Of a stretch of 64,000 nucleotides of DNA, positions 20,371 through 54,950 are shown one piece after another (position 1 is the stretch's first letter; every line of letters begins with the position of its first letter). The DNA lies in the IMG/VR virus record IMGVR_UViG_3300012953_000001, positions 114,430 to 178,429 of that record; one strand, 5' to 3'. A program made the position numbers and the translations under genes. The notes beneath the pieces are model-generated. The model was not told the DNA's origin, ran no database searches, and saw only the letters and a program-made list of their open reading frames with translations. This DNA is from a virus.

Positions 20371-20379
20371 TTAAAGTGT

Positions 20380-20408
20380 GCAAAATATACACGCGTTTAT
20401 GGGATAAG
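20380..20408 (+). promoter_or_regulatory. phage promoter-like motif GCAAAA-N15-GGGATAAG
   Basis: About 20 nt upstream of the Y-like RNA1. Confidence 0.6.
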
Positions 20409-20428
20409 ATTATTGGAAGCTCTTAGTT

Positions 20429-20685
20429 AGATGCCGACTAGGATTACATCGAACATTAGTATCTTGGTTAACACCTTGCTAATTAAGAGTTTCTTTTTGA
20501 GCACGACTCGTCGTGTTCTTTCCACGTTCCGAATGCGTTTGAGGAGTACATCAAAGCAAGTAAAGACGGTAGTAACGCGACTCCTCTGGAGCGTACAAGC
20601 TACCTGACTTTTCAAACCAGAGGCTGAACCTTATGGCTAGGTCTCTATTTTAACTCTTCAAGCAAACCTTGTCGGAACATCTTTT
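20429..20685 (+). ncRNA. Y RNA-like structured RNA 1 (~255 nt)
   Basis: 5'/3' closing helix AGAUG-CCGAC-UAGG / CCUU-GUCGG-AA-CAUCU plus a U tract; inner helix UUGCU..UUAAGAGUU / AACUCUUCAAGCAA; internal hairpins; upstream of Ro60. Confidence 0.65.
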
Positions 20686-20756
20686 ATCGCTGCTGAATGC
20701 CGTACTGGATTACATAAGCAAAAAACGAATCTAGTACACCCCCTTGTCAGCAGCAT
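20686..20756 (+). ncRNA. Y RNA-like structured RNA 2 (~70 nt)
   Basis: GCUGCUGA/UCAGCAGC lower stem, GUACUGGAUU/AAUCUAGUAC upper stem, and CCUUGUC shared with RNA1. Confidence 0.6.
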
Positions 20757-20797
20757 CCTTAGAGCCTGAACTATTGTCACAATCAAAGGAGTTTCTC

Positions 20798-22390
20798 ATG
20801 AACCCAGCAATCTTCAACACTCACACCGTCGTCAACCGCAGCGCAGAAGCCCCGGCAACTAACACTACCAATGAGGCTGGTGGTGCTGCGTACGAGCTTG
20901 AGCCCAAGGCTCAGCTTGCACAGTACGTTTGTACTGGAACCCTCAACCAAACTTTCTACGCCCATGCTGGAACACAGCTGGAGAAAGTCATCGAGCTTTG
21001 CGAGAAGGTCGAGCCTGAGTTCATTGCTCAGTGCGCGGTCTACGCTCGCACCAAGGGCCACATGAAGGACATGCCTGCTTTGCTGCTAGGTATCTTGTCC
21101 ATCAGGGATACGGCTCTGTTCGCACAGATCTTTCCTCGTATCATTACGAATGGAAAGATGCTGCGGAACTTTGCTCAGGTGATCCGCTCCGGTTCTGTTG
21201 GTCGTAAGAGCTTCGGCTCTCGCGCCAAGAAGTGCATCCAGGAATGGCTTCGGTCAAGAACCCCAGAGCAGCTTCTTGTAGCTACTATTGGGAACAACCC
21301 GACGCTTGGTGACATCATCAAGATGGTCCACCCTAAGCCGGTGGACGAAGTGCAAAAGGCGATGTTCGCTTGGATCATTGGTAGGGACTTCAACATCGAA
21401 GTTCTCCCCCAAGGAATCCAAGAGTACATCTCCGGTACTCGGGTGACCGAACAGATGCTTCAGAACCTTCCTCACAGACTGCTTACAAAGTACGATCTGA
21501 CGACGGAAGACTGGCGCGTCATTGCACTAAATAGTGGGTGGACTGCTAAGCGAATGAATCTCAACTCGTTCGCGAAGCACGGCGTATTCTCCTCAGAGAT
21601 TGGAGACTGGACTGCTAAGGAATTGGCTTCCAGTATCCGAGATCCGAACGAGATTCGTCGGTCCAGATGCTTCCCCTACCAGTTGCTGACTACCTTTCAG
21701 AACGTGAACGATGATGTACCCACTGTCATCCGAAGCGCTCTTCAGGACGCCATGGAGGTGGCTATCGAGAATGTGCCAACCATTACTGGTAATATGGCGG
21801 TTCTCGTAGACACCTCTGGTTCTATGGGTAGTCCCGTAACTGGGTACCGAGCAGGGTCAACTACTTCGACGAGTTGCGTCGATGTGGCGGCACTGATTGC
21901 TTCGGCGTTCCTTCGTAAGAATGAAGACGGCTGCACAGTCGTCCCATTCGATACTAGGGTCCACCAAGCACGCCTCAATCCTCGCGATTCTGTGATGTCA
22001 AATGCACAGACTCTCGCGAACTTTGGTGGCGGCGGTACTGATGTATCTTGCGCCCTTCGGCACCTCAACCATGAGGGACATGAAGGTAAGTTGGTAGTCA
22101 TCATTTCGGACAACGAGAGTTGGATGAATGATGATCAGTACCGCTACTACAATAGCAGTACTTCTACAGCGCAGGAGTGGGAGCATTACAAAGAGCGCAA
22201 CCCTGGGGCTCGCCTCGTTTGTGTTGACATCGCACCGTACGGAAGCACTCAAGTGCCCACGGATAAGGATGTCCTCAACGTTGGTGGCTTCTCGGACTCT
22301 GTGTTTGACGTGATTGCGTCATTCGCAGGGGAGCGACCTCAATCAGATCATTGGGTATCAATGATTGAGGCTCAAGCTCAAGCCAATTAG
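20798..22390 (+). CDS. rsr: Ro60/TROVE-domain RNA-binding protein with vWA domain
   Basis: NEAGGAAY, YAR..GHMKDMP, MLRNF.Q.IRSG..GRKS.GS, MVHPKP and the VDTSGSM MIDAS motif; AAAGGAG SD before ATG 20798. Confidence 0.95.
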   Translation: MNPAIFNTHTVVNRSAEAPATNTTNEAGGAAYELEPKAQLAQYVCTGTLNQTFYAHAGTQLEKVIELCEKVEPEFIAQCAVYARTKGHMKDMPALLLGILSIRDTALFAQIFPRIITNGKMLRNFAQVIRSGSVGRKSFGSRAKKCIQEWLRSRTPEQLLVATIGNNPTLGDIIKMVHPKPVDEVQKAMFAWIIGRDFNIEVLPQGIQEYISGTRVTEQMLQNLPHRLLTKYDLTTEDWRVIALNSGWTAKRMNLNSFAKHGVFSSEIGDWTAKELASSIRDPNEIRRSRCFPYQLLTTFQNVNDDVPTVIRSALQDAMEVAIENVPTITGNMAVLVDTSGSMGSPVTGYRAGSTTSTSCVDVAALIASAFLRKNEDGCTVVPFDTRVHQARLNPRDSVMSNAQTLANFGGGGTDVSCALRHLNHEGHEGKLVVIISDNESWMNDDQYRYYNSSTSTAQEWEHYKERNPGARLVCVDIAPYGSTQVPTDKDVLNVGGFSDSVFDVIASFAGERPQSDHWVSMIEAQAQAN

Positions 22391-28893: not shown

Positions 28894-28922
28894 GCAAAAT
28901 GTAGTAGCTCCATGGGTATAAG
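28894..28922 (+). promoter_or_regulatory. phage promoter-like motif GCAAAA-N15-GGTATAAG
   Basis: Upstream of 28965. Confidence 0.6.
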
Positions 28923-51774: not shown

Positions 51775-51802
51775 GCAAAATAAACGAATACGCAGGTATA
51801 AG
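51775..51802 (+). promoter_or_regulatory. phage promoter-like motif GCAAAA-N14-GGTATAAG heading the tRNA cluster
   Basis: Consensus instance. Confidence 0.6.
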
Positions 51803-51825
51803 AGGTTTGTGGAAGGCACACGTCT

Positions 51826-51945: not shown

Positions 51946-52041
51946 GGGCCCGTAGCTCAGTGGTTAGAGCAGCAAGCTTATACCTTGTATTAGCGCCTGA
52001 TAAGCGCGAGGTCGTGGGTTCAAATCCCACCGGGCCTACCA
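51946..52041 (+). tRNA. trnI: atypical 96-nt tRNA-Ile with two tandem anticodon arms (UAU and GAU)
   Basis: Acceptor GGGCCCG/CGGGCCT, A73, encoded CCA; D arm GCTC/GAGC; arm1 GCAAG-CTTATAC-CTTGT; arm2 GCGC-CTGATAA-GCGC; AGGTC; T arm GTGGG-TTCAAAT-CCCAC. Confidence 0.85.
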
Positions 52042-52058
52042 AACTTGTGGAGGGACTT

Positions 52059-52382
52059 ATGTCCGAAAAAGAAACTATGAAGAAAGAAGCTCTAGAAGCC
52101 CTAGAGTCAATACTCCCAGGCATAAGTCAGTTCTTGGAAAGTGAAGAGTACGAGCAGGACCATGGGGAAGATATCCCCGGTCTGGATGTCGTCGTCGCTC
52201 TGTTCCAAGAAACAAAGAAGATACAGAAGGAATATCCTATTCTGTTCTCTCTTGCGATGGATGCACTAAACGCAATCAAGGACCACGAAGTCAAACTTGA
52301 GATACTCAAGAATATGATTCTGTCACTTGATGGTATGATCAGTGGGCCAATGACTCCACCAGACGATGGGTACCTGAACTAG
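52059..52382 (+). CDS. acidic hypothetical protein between tRNAs
   Basis: GGAGG SD, ATG 52059. Confidence 0.65.
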   Translation: MSEKETMKKEALEALESILPGISQFLESEEYEQDHGEDIPGLDVVVALFQETKKIQKEYPILFSLAMDALNAIKDHEVKLEILKNMILSLDGMISGPMTPPDDGYLN

Positions 52383-52390
52383 GTACTCAA

Positions 52391-52476
52391 GGGGCTGTGG
52401 CGGAATTGGTATACGCATCAGACTTAAAATCTGACGCCCTATGGGATTGAGGGTTCGAGTCCCTCCAGCCCCACCA
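52391..52476 (+). tRNA. trnL: tRNA-Leu(UAA)
   Basis: GGGGCTG/CAGCCCC acceptor, TCAGA-CTTAAAA-TCTGA, long variable arm, TTCGAGT loop, CCA. Confidence 0.95.
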
Positions 52477-52489
52477 CTCTCTACATACA

Positions 52490-52857
52490 TAGACATGGGA
52501 ACAAAAGTGCTTCCGGGCATTCCATAGATAGACTACCGACAGCCCGTCAGGAATCCAAAGACACCTGCTATTGGAGGTTTTTCTCCTTTCTCCCTATTTC
52601 CAATACCGGGAAGTCTAGGAAGTAATACCTGTGCATGAGGGGGAAGGTAGTTAGGTTACCGACAAGAAATCAAGCAAGCTAGCCATACCCAGCGGTATCC
52701 CCCAGATGGATATGGTGAAAAGGTGTAGCGCCCGAGCGAGTAACATCTCATAGTAGCGCCATGGGTCGCGAGACTATGAGTCGCTTACTCTGCACTGATT
52801 TCTGTCGGATAGCAAATTCTATTGATTGTCCCGGGAGCACTTTTGTTCTCATGTCTA
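52490..52857 (+). ncRNA. ~370-nt ornate structured ncRNA (RNase P-like motifs, unassigned)
   Basis: 28-bp terminal helix with two G-U pairs that fix the + strand; many internal helices; no ORF; lies between two tRNAs. Confidence 0.75.
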
Positions 52858-52868
52858 ACAATATAAAC

Positions 52869-52944
52869 GGGCCGCTAGCTCAACCGGTAGAGCACCGGAC
52901 TTTTAATCCGTAGGTTCCGAGTTCGAGTCTCGGGCGGCTCACCA
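52869..52944 (+). tRNA. trnK: tRNA-Lys(UUU)
   Basis: GGGCCGC/GCGGCTC acceptor, CGGA-CTTTTAA-TCCG, TTCGAGT loop, CCA; 76 nt. Confidence 0.95.
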
Positions 52945-52962
52945 ATCAACCATGGAGGCAAA

Positions 52963-53364
52963 ATGAAAGAAACAGACAAGAGGTACTTGTTCCTTGTGCG
53001 TGGTCTGCCCGGAAGCGGGAAATCCACGGTCGCGGCTGAATTGATCGGACACGAAGGTGTCATGGTAGCCGCCGATGACTACTTTGAAAAAAGTGGGGAA
53101 TATATATTTGATCCGTCAAAGCTACCAGACGCCCACGAAGAGTGTCGAAACAACGTAGAAAAGGCAATGCTCGCAGATTGCCCAAAGATCGCTGTGCACA
53201 ATACCTTCTCTCAGAGATGGGAAGCAGAGCCGTATTTCGCACTAGCAACAAAACACAAATACTCTATATCAGTGGTTGAGTGTCAGAGTAACTTTGGTAA
53301 TATCCATGGCGTGCCCGACAGTACCATATTAAAGATGATTGAACGTTGGGAGCCGTTGGTATAA
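52963..53364 (+). CDS. AAA_33/N4BP2-like P-loop (polynucleotide) kinase
   Basis: VRGLPGSGKST, ADDYF, AH..C, NTF..WE..PY. Confidence 0.85.
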   Translation: MKETDKRYLFLVRGLPGSGKSTVAAELIGHEGVMVAADDYFEKSGEYIFDPSKLPDAHEECRNNVEKAMLADCPKIAVHNTFSQRWEAEPYFALATKHKYSISVVECQSNFGNIHGVPDSTILKMIERWEPLV

Positions 53365-53391
53365 ACAACGTATTATCAGTTATGGAGACCT

Positions 53392-53420
53392 GCAAGATGG
53401 CTAACGATCCTAGGTATAAG
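53392..53420 (+). promoter_or_regulatory. phage promoter-like motif GCAAGA-N15-GGTATAAG
   Basis: Upstream of 53464. Confidence 0.55.
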
Positions 53421-53463
53421 AACTATGAAGGAATTACCCTTCTATCTATCCTAGGAGAGAATA

Positions 53464-53679
53464 ATGGATTACCGATGCATTCTATGCGAAAACGATATGG
53501 CTATCGGGAAAATGCCAACCGGCACAGCCATTTACTGCCCAGACCAAGACTGTAGTGAACATACAGTCACGATTATTAGTGGAGGCACAGCAACATGTTC
53601 ATCGAGCTTCAAACAAGGCCTGACGGCTTTCCAGATGGGTACTCACGCACCCTGCTCCGTTCAACTTCAATTGTTCTAA
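53464..53679 (+). CDS. small zinc-finger protein
   Basis: CILC..CPDQDC; AGGAG SD. Confidence 0.55.
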   Translation: MDYRCILCENDMAIGKMPTGTAIYCPDQDCSEHTVTIISGGTATCSSSFKQGLTAFQMGTHAPCSVQLQLF

Positions 53680-53870
53680 TCCGGGAATCAGAAAAGAGCC
53701 CAGGTCATACAGAGGTTGTACTCGATAATAGTAGTTGTCATACTTGCCAAGAAAATATTGAGGAAGTCTTTTCCAGGATTCAAAAAGCTGAGGCCTCAAG
53801 TAATATGGGTTACTCTGTGACAATGGAAGGTAATGGCTTCACAACGACCGCAACTGGGACTAATCTTTAA
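53595..53870 (+). CDS. hypothetical protein
   Basis: GGAGG SD; MFIEL..LL....IV.I pattern. Confidence 0.55.
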   Translation: MFIELQTRPDGFPDGYSRTLLRSTSIVLIRESEKSPGHTEVVLDNSSCHTCQENIEEVFSRIQKAEASSNMGYSVTMEGNGFTTTATGTNL

Positions 53871-53963
53871 ACCAACTCCAGCGTCGGCCCAACTTATGTT
53901 GGGTCGGCGTTGGTCCTATTTATTACGTACTATAGAAAAATGGATAATAAGAACTAGGGGACT

Positions 53964-54440
53964 ATGATGATTTGTATTGACCTATCGCGACTCTACTTCG
54001 CAATTCGTGACCTGAACGTCACGATAAACTATGAGAAGCTTCTTAAGGTCCTCCTAGAAACGTGTGATGGTGAAAACGTAGGTGTGGAGGCTTTTACAAA
54101 AGCTGATCCCAAAAACGTAAACCAAAGCAAGTTCCTAAAGAGGCTAGAAGGACTTGGCTTCAAACTACACGTATATGATGTAGCAACCAGCACAGACTCT
54201 TTCTCTGCTGAAATCGCAACGATTGCTGCGCTTTCAGGGGATAAGGAAATTACTATTCTTTCAAACGATCAATCCCTGATGGGAGTGTTCAAGCTTCTTG
54301 AGGAGCACGAAAGAAACGTAACTCTCTGTTTCTTTAGCGAAAAGCTAGAGAAGGGCTGGACCCCCAAGATTCTATGCGGGGACATCAAGTTTTTAGACTT
54401 ATCTAATCCGGAGGTTCGGAAATCAATCACTAACTCTTAG
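53964..54440 (+). CDS. NYN/LabA (PIN-like) domain protein, divergent
   Basis: CIDLSRLY..INYEKL..ILSND pattern. Confidence 0.5.
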   Translation: MMICIDLSRLYFAIRDLNVTINYEKLLKVLLETCDGENVGVEAFTKADPKNVNQSKFLKRLEGLGFKLHVYDVATSTDSFSAEIATIAALSGDKEITILSNDQSLMGVFKLLEEHERNVTLCFFSEKLEKGWTPKILCGDIKFLDLSNPEVRKSITNS

Positions 54441-54449
54441 GAGGCAAAC

Positions 54450-54950
<501 letters not shown>

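What the first reader, a model, noticed from the sequence alone, without database searches (positions are those of the whole stretch)
52490..52857. ~370-nt ornate ncRNA between tRNA-Leu and tRNA-Lys with collinear RNase P-like motifs
Seen: the ends pair in a 28-bp helix (52490-52517 with 52830-52857) whose only imperfections are two G-U pairs, supporting an RNA on the + strand. Inside are CCGACAG/CUGUCGG, a long hairpin domain 52543-52610, a three-way junction 52682-52716, CUCAUAGU/ACUAUGAG, and a pyrimidine-rich loop able to pseudoknot with GAGGGGGAAGG. A duplicated UACCGACA (52534, 52657) gives two competing partners for 52796-52808. Motifs GGGAAGUC, ACAAGAAA, GGUGAAAAGGUG (52714-52725) and GAGCGAG occur in the order of RNase P RNA conserved regions I-IV, and the size matches, but CR-V/P4 and P5 are atypical. 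Established: large phage ncRNAs such as GOLLD and ROOL also sit among tRNA genes. Inference: a divergent RNase P-like RNA that matures the flanking tRNAs, or a new ornate RNA class.
Basis: partly seen in the sequence, partly recalled or inferred. Interest (0 to 1): 0.85.

Follow-up and report, generated by a model that had tools for sequence, protein, structure and literature searches.

The report
Orphan folded RNA in phage tRNA operon
A marine phage carries a roughly 370-base non-coding insert between two of its tRNA genes that evolves as a folded RNA closed by a very long stem; it is not an RNase P, matches no known RNA family, occurs in only one phage species, and its job is unknown.

Summary
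Positions 52490-52857 form a single-copy, ORF-free element whose ends pair over 28 bp (37 bp with extensions). This is by far the longest distant inverted repeat in the 178-kb phage genome.

The element lies on the + strand between tRNA-Leu and tRNA-Lys, inside a unit bracketed by two copies of the phage's own promoter motif.

A second lineage of the same phage (L112, 94.5% identical overall) has 100% identical tRNAs but about 30 changes in the element:
- 8 paired positions change on one side and stay paired, all through G-U on the + strand.
- 2 pairs change on both sides and stay paired.
- 5 pairs break, against about 10 expected (joint permutation P about 0.002).
- The element diverges less (7.3%) than third codon positions (12.4%).

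This supports a + strand RNA whose structure is under selection.

The RNase P reading fails: RNase P, GOLLD, ROOL, group I intron and YrlA models give no hit. Every more distant relative examined (16 whole records, about 1 Mb of loci) lacks the element and places the two tRNAs 10-16 nt apart. No second copy turned up, which argues against a MITE.

Best reading: a helix-closed stable RNA cassette cut out of the tRNA precursor. The scan has noted this kind in other phages; here it is an orphan.

The parts
51775..51804 (+). Phage-specific promoter-like motif (GCAAAA-N14-GGTATAAG) at the head of the unit that contains the element
   Evidence: The motif has 10 hits in the genome, all on the + strand, against 0.2 expected. 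It is 100% identical in L112. No terminator-like site lies between it and the element.
52391..52476 (+). tRNA-Leu(UAA), CCA encoded; upstream border of the spacer RNA
   Evidence: It is 100% identical in L112.
52477..52489 (+). Unpaired 5' tail of the spacer
   Evidence: Unchanged in L112.
52490..52528 (+). 5' strand of closing stem P1 (28 bp plus extensions, 37 bp in all)
   Evidence: In L112 the stem has 4 one-sided changes that all stay paired through G-U, plus one U-A to C-G double change at 52525/52821, and no broken pair.
52531..52652 (+). Domain A: closing helix GACUACC/GGUAGUU, with an uncertain interior that includes the pyrimidine-rich loop and GAGGGGGAAGG
   Evidence: The closing helix shows a C-G to U-A double change at 52536/52647. 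The interior is not significantly structured (z = -0.9). RNAalifold refolds it with a further U-A to C-G pair at 52598/52611.
52655..52813 (+). Domain B: invariant 20-bp closing stem (52655-52676 with 52791-52813), branch B1 (52678-52737) and hairpin B2 (52738-52790)
   Evidence: z = -5.1 on the + strand. The stem is invariant between lineages; changes cluster in the apical parts of B1 and B2. A covariance model of this domain matches nothing else.
52818..52857 (+). 3' strand of closing stem P1
52858..52868 (+). Unpaired 3' tail of the spacer, ending at the RNase P site of tRNA-Lys
52869..52944 (+). tRNA-Lys(UUU), CCA encoded; downstream border
   Evidence: It is 100% identical in L112.
53392..53421 (+). 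Next copy of the promoter motif, marking the start of the following unit

Best explanation
The element is an accessory, non-coding, helix-closed RNA cassette inside a phage tRNA operon.

Shown:
- It is ORF-free, single-copy and co-oriented with the tRNAs.
- It lies between two copies of the phage's + strand promoter motif, with no terminator before it.
- Its helices are kept by selection on the + strand between two diverged lineages.
- It is absent from every more distant relative examined.

Inferred:
- It is transcribed in the precursor ORF36 - tRNA-Ile - ORF107 - tRNA-Leu - element - tRNA-Lys - kinase.
- RNase P cutting at the 5' end of tRNA-Lys and 3' trimming of tRNA-Leu release a 392-nt spacer RNA.
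- The 37-bp closing stem brings the two tRNAs back to about their ancestral distance (13 + 11 unpaired nt), so the insert does not disturb tRNA folding.
- The stem also shields both ends from exonucleases. At this length it is a likely substrate for host RNase III, as in rRNA leader-trailer stalks.
- The released RNA of about 340-390 nt is then a stable phage RNA. Its conserved domain B core probably binds a protein or RNA of the RNA-handling machinery; the partner and effect are unknown.
For: - Position and strand. The promoter motif has 10 of 10 hits on the + strand against 0.2 expected, with copies at 51775 and 53392. No terminator precedes the element.
- The closing stem is an extreme outlier in the genome.
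- Second lineage L112: tRNAs and promoter 100% identical, element 91.6%.
- On the structure predicted from the window alone: 12 changes unpaired, 8 pairs changed on one side and kept, 2 changed on both sides and kept, 5 broken.
- Placing the same substitutions at random gives 9.8 +/- 1.9 broken pairs (P = 0.013) and 0.35 double changes (P = 0.046); joint P = 0.002.
- All 8 one-sided kept changes are G-U on the + strand, against one A-C. This favours + strand RNA over DNA or the - strand.
- Element divergence is 7.3%, against 12.4% at third codon positions.
- In three further marine studies the element is present in the same orientation. Its two SNPs are G-C to G-U and a bulge change.
- One metatranscriptome contig (158 nt, 52575-52732) lies inside the element while the flanking ORFs have no cover. 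This is a weak hint.
Against: - Only two full-length sequences exist, so the covariation statistics are thin. The tool's own shuffle control is uninformative with two rows.
- Five predicted pairs break, and domain A is not significantly structured.
- Transcription, processing sites and stability are not shown; the RNA evidence is one low-depth contig.
- No homologue, partner or target was found, so a trans function is pure inference.
- The element is much less conserved than the neighbouring tRNAs.
Confidence: 0.6

Rival explanations
1. Cis-only insulated insert. The insert has no job of its own. Selection keeps only the closing stems, so that an accidental 370-nt insertion stays folded on itself and does not disturb maturation of tRNA-Leu and tRNA-Lys. 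The stem may also serve as an RNase III cut that separates the two halves of the precursor.
For: - Compensated and G-U changes concentrate in the closing helices P1 and the domain A closure.
- Relatives do without the element and have 10-16 nt spacers.
- Divergence is close to neutral in the apical parts.
Against: - Overall divergence is significantly below third-codon positions.
- Three blocks of about 40 nt in the domain B core are invariant, though runs of that length are not rare at this divergence.
- A useless 370-nt insert in a compact phage genome would be expected to be lost, yet two lineages and several ocean samples keep it.
Confidence: 0.22
2. MITE-like mobile DNA. The element is a non-autonomous transposon with 26-bp terminal inverted repeats and a TA target duplication (IS630/Correia-like) that landed in the tRNA spacer and is transcribed passively.
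For: - It has terminal inverted repeats flanked by TA on both sides.
- It is present or absent as a clean indel between relatives.
Against: - It is single-copy in the genome.
- The 26-mer repeat has 0 hits in IMG/VR.
- The 21-mer gives one single-arm chance hit in 185,579 species genomes. The 18-mer gives three single-arm chance hits in IMG/VR.
- Nothing was found in INPHARED or PLSDB.
- TA is self-complementary, so it may simply extend the helix.
- The repeat arms change between lineages in a strand-specific way that keeps pairing through G-U, and one pair co-varies. That fits selection on pairing, not on a transposase binding site.
Confidence: 0.08
3. Divergent RNase P-like ribozyme that matures the flanking tRNAs.
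For: - The size, about 370 nt.
- Short strings resemble CR-I to CR-III (GGGAAGUC, GGUGAAAAGGUG, GAGCGAG) in the right order.
- A 7-bp GGAAGUC/GAUUUCU pairing is possible.
Against: - RF00010 and RF00011 give no match in the genome at E<=10, while each search rings in 11 of 14 control genomes.
- The local scan at E<=10 also gives no match.
- Relatives with identical tRNA-Leu and closely related tRNA-Lys lack the element, so the tRNAs mature without it.
- The element evolves fast, and GGGAAGUC itself changes in L112.
- The P4-like pairing competes with an invariant helix.
Confidence: 0.02
4. DNA-level element: an invertible segment (inverton), a retron template, or a cruciform or origin.
For: A 28-bp inverted repeat flanks about 310 bp, a size typical of invertons.
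Against: - The phage has no serine or tyrosine recombinase and no reverse transcriptase.
- No promoter motif of either kind lies inside the element.
- Contigs from three independent metagenome studies all carry the same orientation, with no strand-switch joint.
- The strand-specific G-U pattern points to RNA.
Confidence: 0.03

Closest known systems
Bacteriophage T4 small stable RNAs RNAC and RNAD (species 1 and 2)
   Same: They are non-coding RNAs of a lytic phage. By my own knowledge they are encoded beside the tRNA genes and made from the same precursors. Their function is still unknown (PMC9697503 calls them 'RNAs of yet unknown functions').
   Different: - The T4 RNAs are about 120-140 nt; this one is about 370 nt with a 37-bp closing stem.
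- There is no sequence or model similarity: nothing was found in INPHARED or Rfam.
- This element is confined to one phage species.
Leader-trailer processing stalks of bacterial rRNA operons (RNase III sites)
   Same: Sequences on both sides of a structured RNA pair into a long helix within a polycistronic precursor that also carries tRNAs. By established knowledge, a helix of this length is an RNase III substrate.
   Different: The enclosed RNA is not rRNA. Cleavage is untested. The phage encodes no RNase III of its own.
GOLLD and ROOL large ornate RNAs
   Same: They are large structured RNAs of unknown function, often near tRNA genes and in prophages (PMC5737381; 10.1101/2024.12.08.627333).
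   Different: - There is no match to their Rfam models.
- This element is about half their size.
- Those families span phyla; this one spans one phage species.
Bacterial RNase P RNA (Rfam RF00010, RF00011)
   Same: Similar length, and a few short look-alike strings in the same order.
   Different: There is no covariance-model match at any threshold tried. No conserved core is seen, and relatives with identical tRNA-Leu and closely related tRNA-Lys do without the element.
Correia elements and other IS630-type MITEs
   Same: They have terminal inverted repeats of about 26 bp flanked by TA. By my own knowledge, their transcripts fold into hairpins cut by RNase III.
   Different: No second copy was found anywhere searched. 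The arms evolve by pairing-preserving, strand-specific changes.
Y RNAs (YrlA) with Ro60/Rsr
   Same: The ends pair in a stem that closes structured modules. According to an earlier scan note (unchecked), this phage encodes a Ro60-like protein with Y-like modules at 20379-22390.
   Different: The YrlA model does not match the element. It lacks the AUGC...GGA(U/G)UACAU motif of this phage's own Y-like modules. It lies 30 kb from the rsr gene.

Membership tests
Bacterial RNase P RNA (RF00010 type A, RF00011 type B) | Match to the family covariance model (conserved core P1-P4, CR-I to CR-V) | tested here: not met
   No match in the whole genome at E<=10 for either model. The same searches ring in 11 of 14 control genomes. 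The 701-nt local scan at E<=10 also shows none.
Bacterial RNase P RNA (RF00010 type A, RF00011 type B) | P4 long-range helix between CR-I and CR-V | tested here: inconclusive
   A 7-bp GGAAGUC (52609-15) / GAUUUCU (52797-803) pairing can be drawn, and the A52611G change keeps it as G-U. But its 3' strand is already used by the invariant helix GAAAUCA/UGAUUUC.
Bacterial RNase P RNA (RF00010 type A, RF00011 type B) | Pre-tRNA 5' cleavage activity | not testable with these tools
   This needs an in vitro assay. Indirectly, relatives with identical tRNA-Leu and closely related tRNA-Lys lack the element.
GOLLD / ROOL / other Rfam large RNAs, tmRNA, SRP, 6S | Match to the family covariance model | tested here: not met
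   cmscan of the window at gathering score finds only the 4 tRNAs. The local scan at E<=10 finds only tRNA-related and noise hits.
Group I intron (RF00028) | Match to the model, and interruption of a host gene | tested here: not met
   No match at E<=10. Both flanking tRNAs are intact.
YrlA-type Y RNA (RF02553) | Match to the model; tRNA-like module; proximity to rsr | tested here: not met
   The only weak hits are near tRNA-Arg (just downstream of position 54874), not in the element.
MITE / IS-derived element | Several copies with the same terminal repeats, in this or other genomes | tested here: not met
   Single copy in the genome. No true second copy in IMG/VR, GTDB species genomes, INPHARED or PLSDB. 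The pattern scans need exact repeat words.
MITE / IS-derived element | Target-site duplication | tested here: inconclusive
   TA flanks both ends, but TA is self-complementary and may be part of the helix. Relatives' spacers are too diverged to show an empty site.
Inverton (invertible promoter segment) | Recombinase, both orientations in populations, internal promoter | tested here: not met
   No resolvase or integrase family in the genome. One orientation in contigs from three independent studies. No promoter motif inside the element.
Retron msr-msd | Adjacent reverse transcriptase | tested here: not met
   No RVT_1 match in the genome.
Helix-closed stable RNAs of phage tRNA operons (T4 RNAC/RNAD kind) | Non-coding, between co-oriented tRNA genes in one transcription unit | tested here: met
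Helix-closed stable RNAs of phage tRNA operons (T4 RNAC/RNAD kind) | Structure maintained by selection on the transcribed strand | tested here: met
   Two-lineage comparison: 8 one-sided and 2 double pairing-preserving changes, and broken pairs at half the expected number; joint P = 0.002. The sample is thin, with only two full sequences.
Helix-closed stable RNAs of phage tRNA operons (T4 RNAC/RNAD kind) | Accumulates as a discrete stable RNA | tested here: inconclusive
   One 158-nt metatranscriptome contig at depth 2.4 lies inside the element, with the flanking ORFs uncovered. Contigs show neither RNA ends nor strand.

The most novel reading that the evidence does not exclude
The excised RNA of about 370 nt is a new trans-acting phage ribonucleoprotein RNA. 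Its invariant domain B core would dock a phage RNA-handling protein, and the RNA would act on host or phage RNA metabolism during takeover. Candidate partners are the adjacent polynucleotide-kinase-like ATPase, the NYN nuclease 1 kb downstream, or the Ro60-like protein. This would be an evolutionarily young large ncRNA caught soon after its birth in a tRNA spacer.
Probability: 0.15. Interest if true: 0.65.

Novelty: new member of a known kind. Interest (0 to 1): 0.42.

Why it matters
Large structured RNAs with no family are rare in bacteria and phages. Most are recognised only when they are widespread. This one is an orphan whose origin can be bracketed in time: it is absent from relatives at 78-88% RNR protein identity and present in two lineages that are 94.5% identical.

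It already shows pairing-preserving evolution. That makes it a possible snapshot of how a new RNA gene settles in a tRNA operon, sealed off by a long stem.

It also adds a case to the helix-closed RNA cassettes that this scan has repeatedly noted between phage tRNA genes. It removes a tempting but wrong 'phage RNase P' annotation.

Its practical weight is limited: there is no isolate, no function, and it occurs in one phage species.

Tried and rejected
Known RNA families:
- Rfam at gathering score and at E<=10 gave nothing.
- Single-family searches of the whole genome for RNase P A and B, group I intron and YrlA gave nothing relevant.

Homologue hunts that came back empty:
- blastn against INPHARED, strict and at E<=5: only chance hits.
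- PLSDB.
- nhmmer and blastn against 100 relatives' loci, 1.24 Mb.
- Covariance model of domain B against about 1 Mb of loci and 16 whole relatives' records.
- Exact-pattern scans of IMG/VR for the repeat 26-mer, the repeat 18-mer and an interior 18-mer.
- Repeat 21-mer in GTDB species genomes: one chance hit at a gene start in a Hyphomonadaceae MAG.
- tRNA-Leu anchor in JGI metagenomes: only two already known relatives.

Same slot in relatives:
- Leu-Lys spacers are 13-16 nt and the Leu-Met spacer is 10 nt.
- One relative has a protein gene there, and one has a 129-nt spacer with a simple hairpin.
- So no analogous cassettes occupy this slot.

Within the genome:
- No antisense target or shared motif above chance.
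- No internal ORF of note.
- No recombinase, reverse transcriptase or RNase III gene.

Population data:
- Contigs show no joint that skips or inverts the element. Contigs drop rare variants, so this is weak.

Context of related proteins:
- Contigs of more distant kinase homologues (P0005, P0007) have protein genes, not tRNAs, upstream.
- Short ENA contigs break at the tRNAs and gave only two partial haplotypes, L118 and L126.

Not possible:
- The L112 assembly is not held, so no host could be read from it.

Full report
**What is there**

The window is the last 64 kb of a complete 178,429-bp marine phage genome with direct terminal repeats. Four tRNA genes lie at 51946-54950 on the + strand. 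The 392 nt between tRNA-Leu(UAA) (52391-52476) and tRNA-Lys(UUU) (52869-52944) hold the reported element.

Positions 52490-52517 pair with 52830-52857 over 28 bp, and the only imperfections are two G-U pairs on the + strand. Three short helices extend this to 37 bp. It is the longest distant inverted repeat in the genome; the next is 17 bp. No credible ORF lies inside. GC content (48.1%) equals that of the genome (48.7%).

**How structured it is**

- The whole spacer folds far better than shuffles (z = -7.75).
- Without the terminal helix the interior gives z = -3.3 on the + strand and -2.8 on the - strand.
- By domain, only domain B (52655-52813; z = -5.1) and its hairpin B2 (z = -4.4) stand out.
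- Domain A (52531-52652) does not stand out (z = -0.9).

A single sequence therefore supports nested long stems but not every detail of an 'ornate' fold.

**Transcription context**

A bipartite motif, GCAAAA-N14/15-GGYATAAG, occurs 10 times in the genome, always on the + strand, against 0.2 expected. Earlier notes of this scan pointed to it, and I re-counted it. Copies at 51775 and 53392 bracket this unit: ORF36 - tRNA-Ile - ORF107 - tRNA-Leu - element - tRNA-Lys - 133-aa AAA_33/polynucleotide-kinase-like protein. No terminator-like site precedes the element. So the + strand of the element should be transcribed with the tRNAs.

**Known families**

- Rfam gives only the tRNAs at gathering score.
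- At E<=10 on the local 701 nt it gives nothing but noise.
- Single-family searches of the whole genome at E<=10 find no RNase P type A or B, although each search rings in 11 of 14 control genomes.
- They also find no group I intron and no YrlA in the element.
- The phage has no serine or tyrosine recombinase, no reverse transcriptase and no RNase III.

The RNase P reading therefore fails its membership test. The inverton and retron readings lack their enzymes.

**Distribution**

Relatives were collected in three ways: through an exact tRNA-Leu word, through the class II ribonucleotide reductase 2 kb upstream, and by searching whole records.

- They keep the Ile-ORF-Leu layout.
- They place the next tRNA 10-16 nt after tRNA-Leu.
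- One has a protein gene in that slot, and one has a 129-nt spacer with a plain hairpin.
- No sequence or covariance-model match to the element exists in 1.24 Mb of loci or in 16 relatives' records.
- None exists in INPHARED or PLSDB.
- Exact scans for the repeat arms found no second copy in IMG/VR or in 185,579 species genomes, only single-arm chance hits.

So the element is an insertion confined to this phage species. The MITE reading (26-bp repeats plus TA) has no second copy to stand on.

**Population data**

Contigs from three independent marine metagenome studies carry the element in the same orientation. They show two SNPs: 52683 C>T, which turns a G-C pair into G-U in the predicted fold, and 52781 T>C, which lies in a bulge. 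No contig skips or inverts the element.

One metatranscriptome holds a 158-nt contig (52575-52732) inside the element, while the two flanking ORFs are uncovered. This is only a weak hint of an abundant RNA.

**The decisive comparison**

The upstream orphan ORF107 has one 96%-identical relative. Its 65-kb contig from an NCBI assembly (L112) is a second lineage of the same phage, 94.5% identical over 5.9 kb.

| Segment | Identity or divergence, window vs L112 |
|---|---|
| tRNA-Ile, tRNA-Leu, tRNA-Lys, promoter | 100% identical |
| Element | 27 substitutions and 4 indel columns (91.6% identical) |
| Third codon positions | 12.4% divergent |
| First and second codon positions | 1-2% divergent |

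On the structure predicted from the window alone:

- 12 changes fall in unpaired positions.
- 8 pairs change on one side and stay paired.
- 2 pairs change on both sides and stay paired: 52525/52821 U-A to C-G, and 52536/52647 C-G to U-A.
- 5 pairs break.

Re-placing the same substitutions at random gives 9.8 +/- 1.9 broken pairs (P = 0.013) and 0.35 double changes (P = 0.046). The joint P is 0.002.

All eight one-sided changes pass through G-U on the + strand; only one change is of the A-C type. This argues for RNA on the + strand, not DNA-level symmetry or a - strand RNA.

The closing stem takes 6 substitutions without losing a pair. The domain B stem is invariant. RNAalifold refolds domain A with a third compensated pair at 52598/52611.

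Two partial haplotypes, L118 (3' part) and L126 (5' part), show that more variation exists. With only two full sequences the tool's own shuffle control is uninformative, so this evidence is real but thin.

**Reading**

The best-supported picture is a helix-closed RNA cassette that arose in, or was inserted into, the Leu-Lys spacer. This happened after this phage split from its 88%-RNR relatives. The cassette is transcribed with the tRNAs and its helices are kept by selection.

I infer the following:
- RNase P (at the tRNA-Lys 5' end) and 3' processing of tRNA-Leu release it.
- The 37-bp stem restores the short effective distance between the tRNAs and protects both ends.
- The stem is a likely substrate for host RNase III, as in rRNA leader-trailer stalks.

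Whether the released RNA acts in trans or is merely tolerated is open. I put about 0.6 on an excised stable RNA and about 0.2 on a cis-only insulated insert. Intermediate constraint (7.3% against 12.4%) and the invariant domain B core lean towards a function, but nothing identifies it.

**Comparison and novelty**

The closest known things are:
- the T4 stable RNAs RNAC and RNAD, whose function is still unknown (PMC9697503);
- rRNA processing stalks;
- more loosely, GOLLD and ROOL near tRNAs in phages (PMC5737381).

Earlier reports of this scan describe the same kind on other phages: helix-closed cassettes in phage tRNA arrays. None of them matches this sequence. I therefore file it as a new, orphan member of a known kind, not as RNase P and not as a new widespread class.

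Noticed in passing
window 54874-54950: tRNA-Arg(UCU) is only 85.7% identical (11 mismatches) between the window and lineage L112. tRNA-Ile, tRNA-Leu and tRNA-Lys are 100% identical, and the neighbouring genes are 94-96% identical. This could be an allele replacement or a relaxed tRNA.
   Followed up: no
window 51775, 53392 and eight further + strand sites in the genome: The promoter-like motif GCAAAA-N14/15-GGYATAAG(AAYTRTG) occurs 10 times, all on the + strand, against 0.2 expected. It probably marks the promoter class of the phage's own RNA polymerase or sigma factor.
   Followed up: partly
L019:1041-1501 (relative G002): In one relative, the slot after tRNA-Leu holds a protein-coding gene of about 130 codons instead of a short spacer. 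The slot after tRNA-Leu is therefore a hot spot for insertions in this phage group.
   Followed up: no
window 52059-52382: The 107-aa acidic ORF between tRNA-Ile and tRNA-Leu is an orphan. Among 5.8 billion proteins only its own 90% cluster was found, and there are no Pfam or PHROG matches.
   Followed up: partly
window 52963-53364 and 53964-54440: The element is followed by a 133-aa AAA_33/polynucleotide-kinase-like P-loop protein, which has 391 relatives at E<=0.001, mostly in marine metagenomes. A weak NYN-domain nuclease follows further on. In more distant relatives the kinase and NYN genes are adjacent but lack the tRNAs.
   Followed up: partly
window 52747-52766 vs 28894-28917: The B2 hairpin shares 15 of 16 bases (TAGTAGCGCCATGGGT) with the spacer of the promoter copy at 28894 (E about 3). 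This is probably chance.
   Followed up: no
L112 (NCBI GCA_902566275.1, contig CACFIM010000005.1): A 65-kb piece of a sister lineage of this phage sits in an NCBI genome assembly. If that assembly is a single-cell or binned genome, it may point to the host. The assembly is not held here, so this could not be checked.
   Followed up: partly
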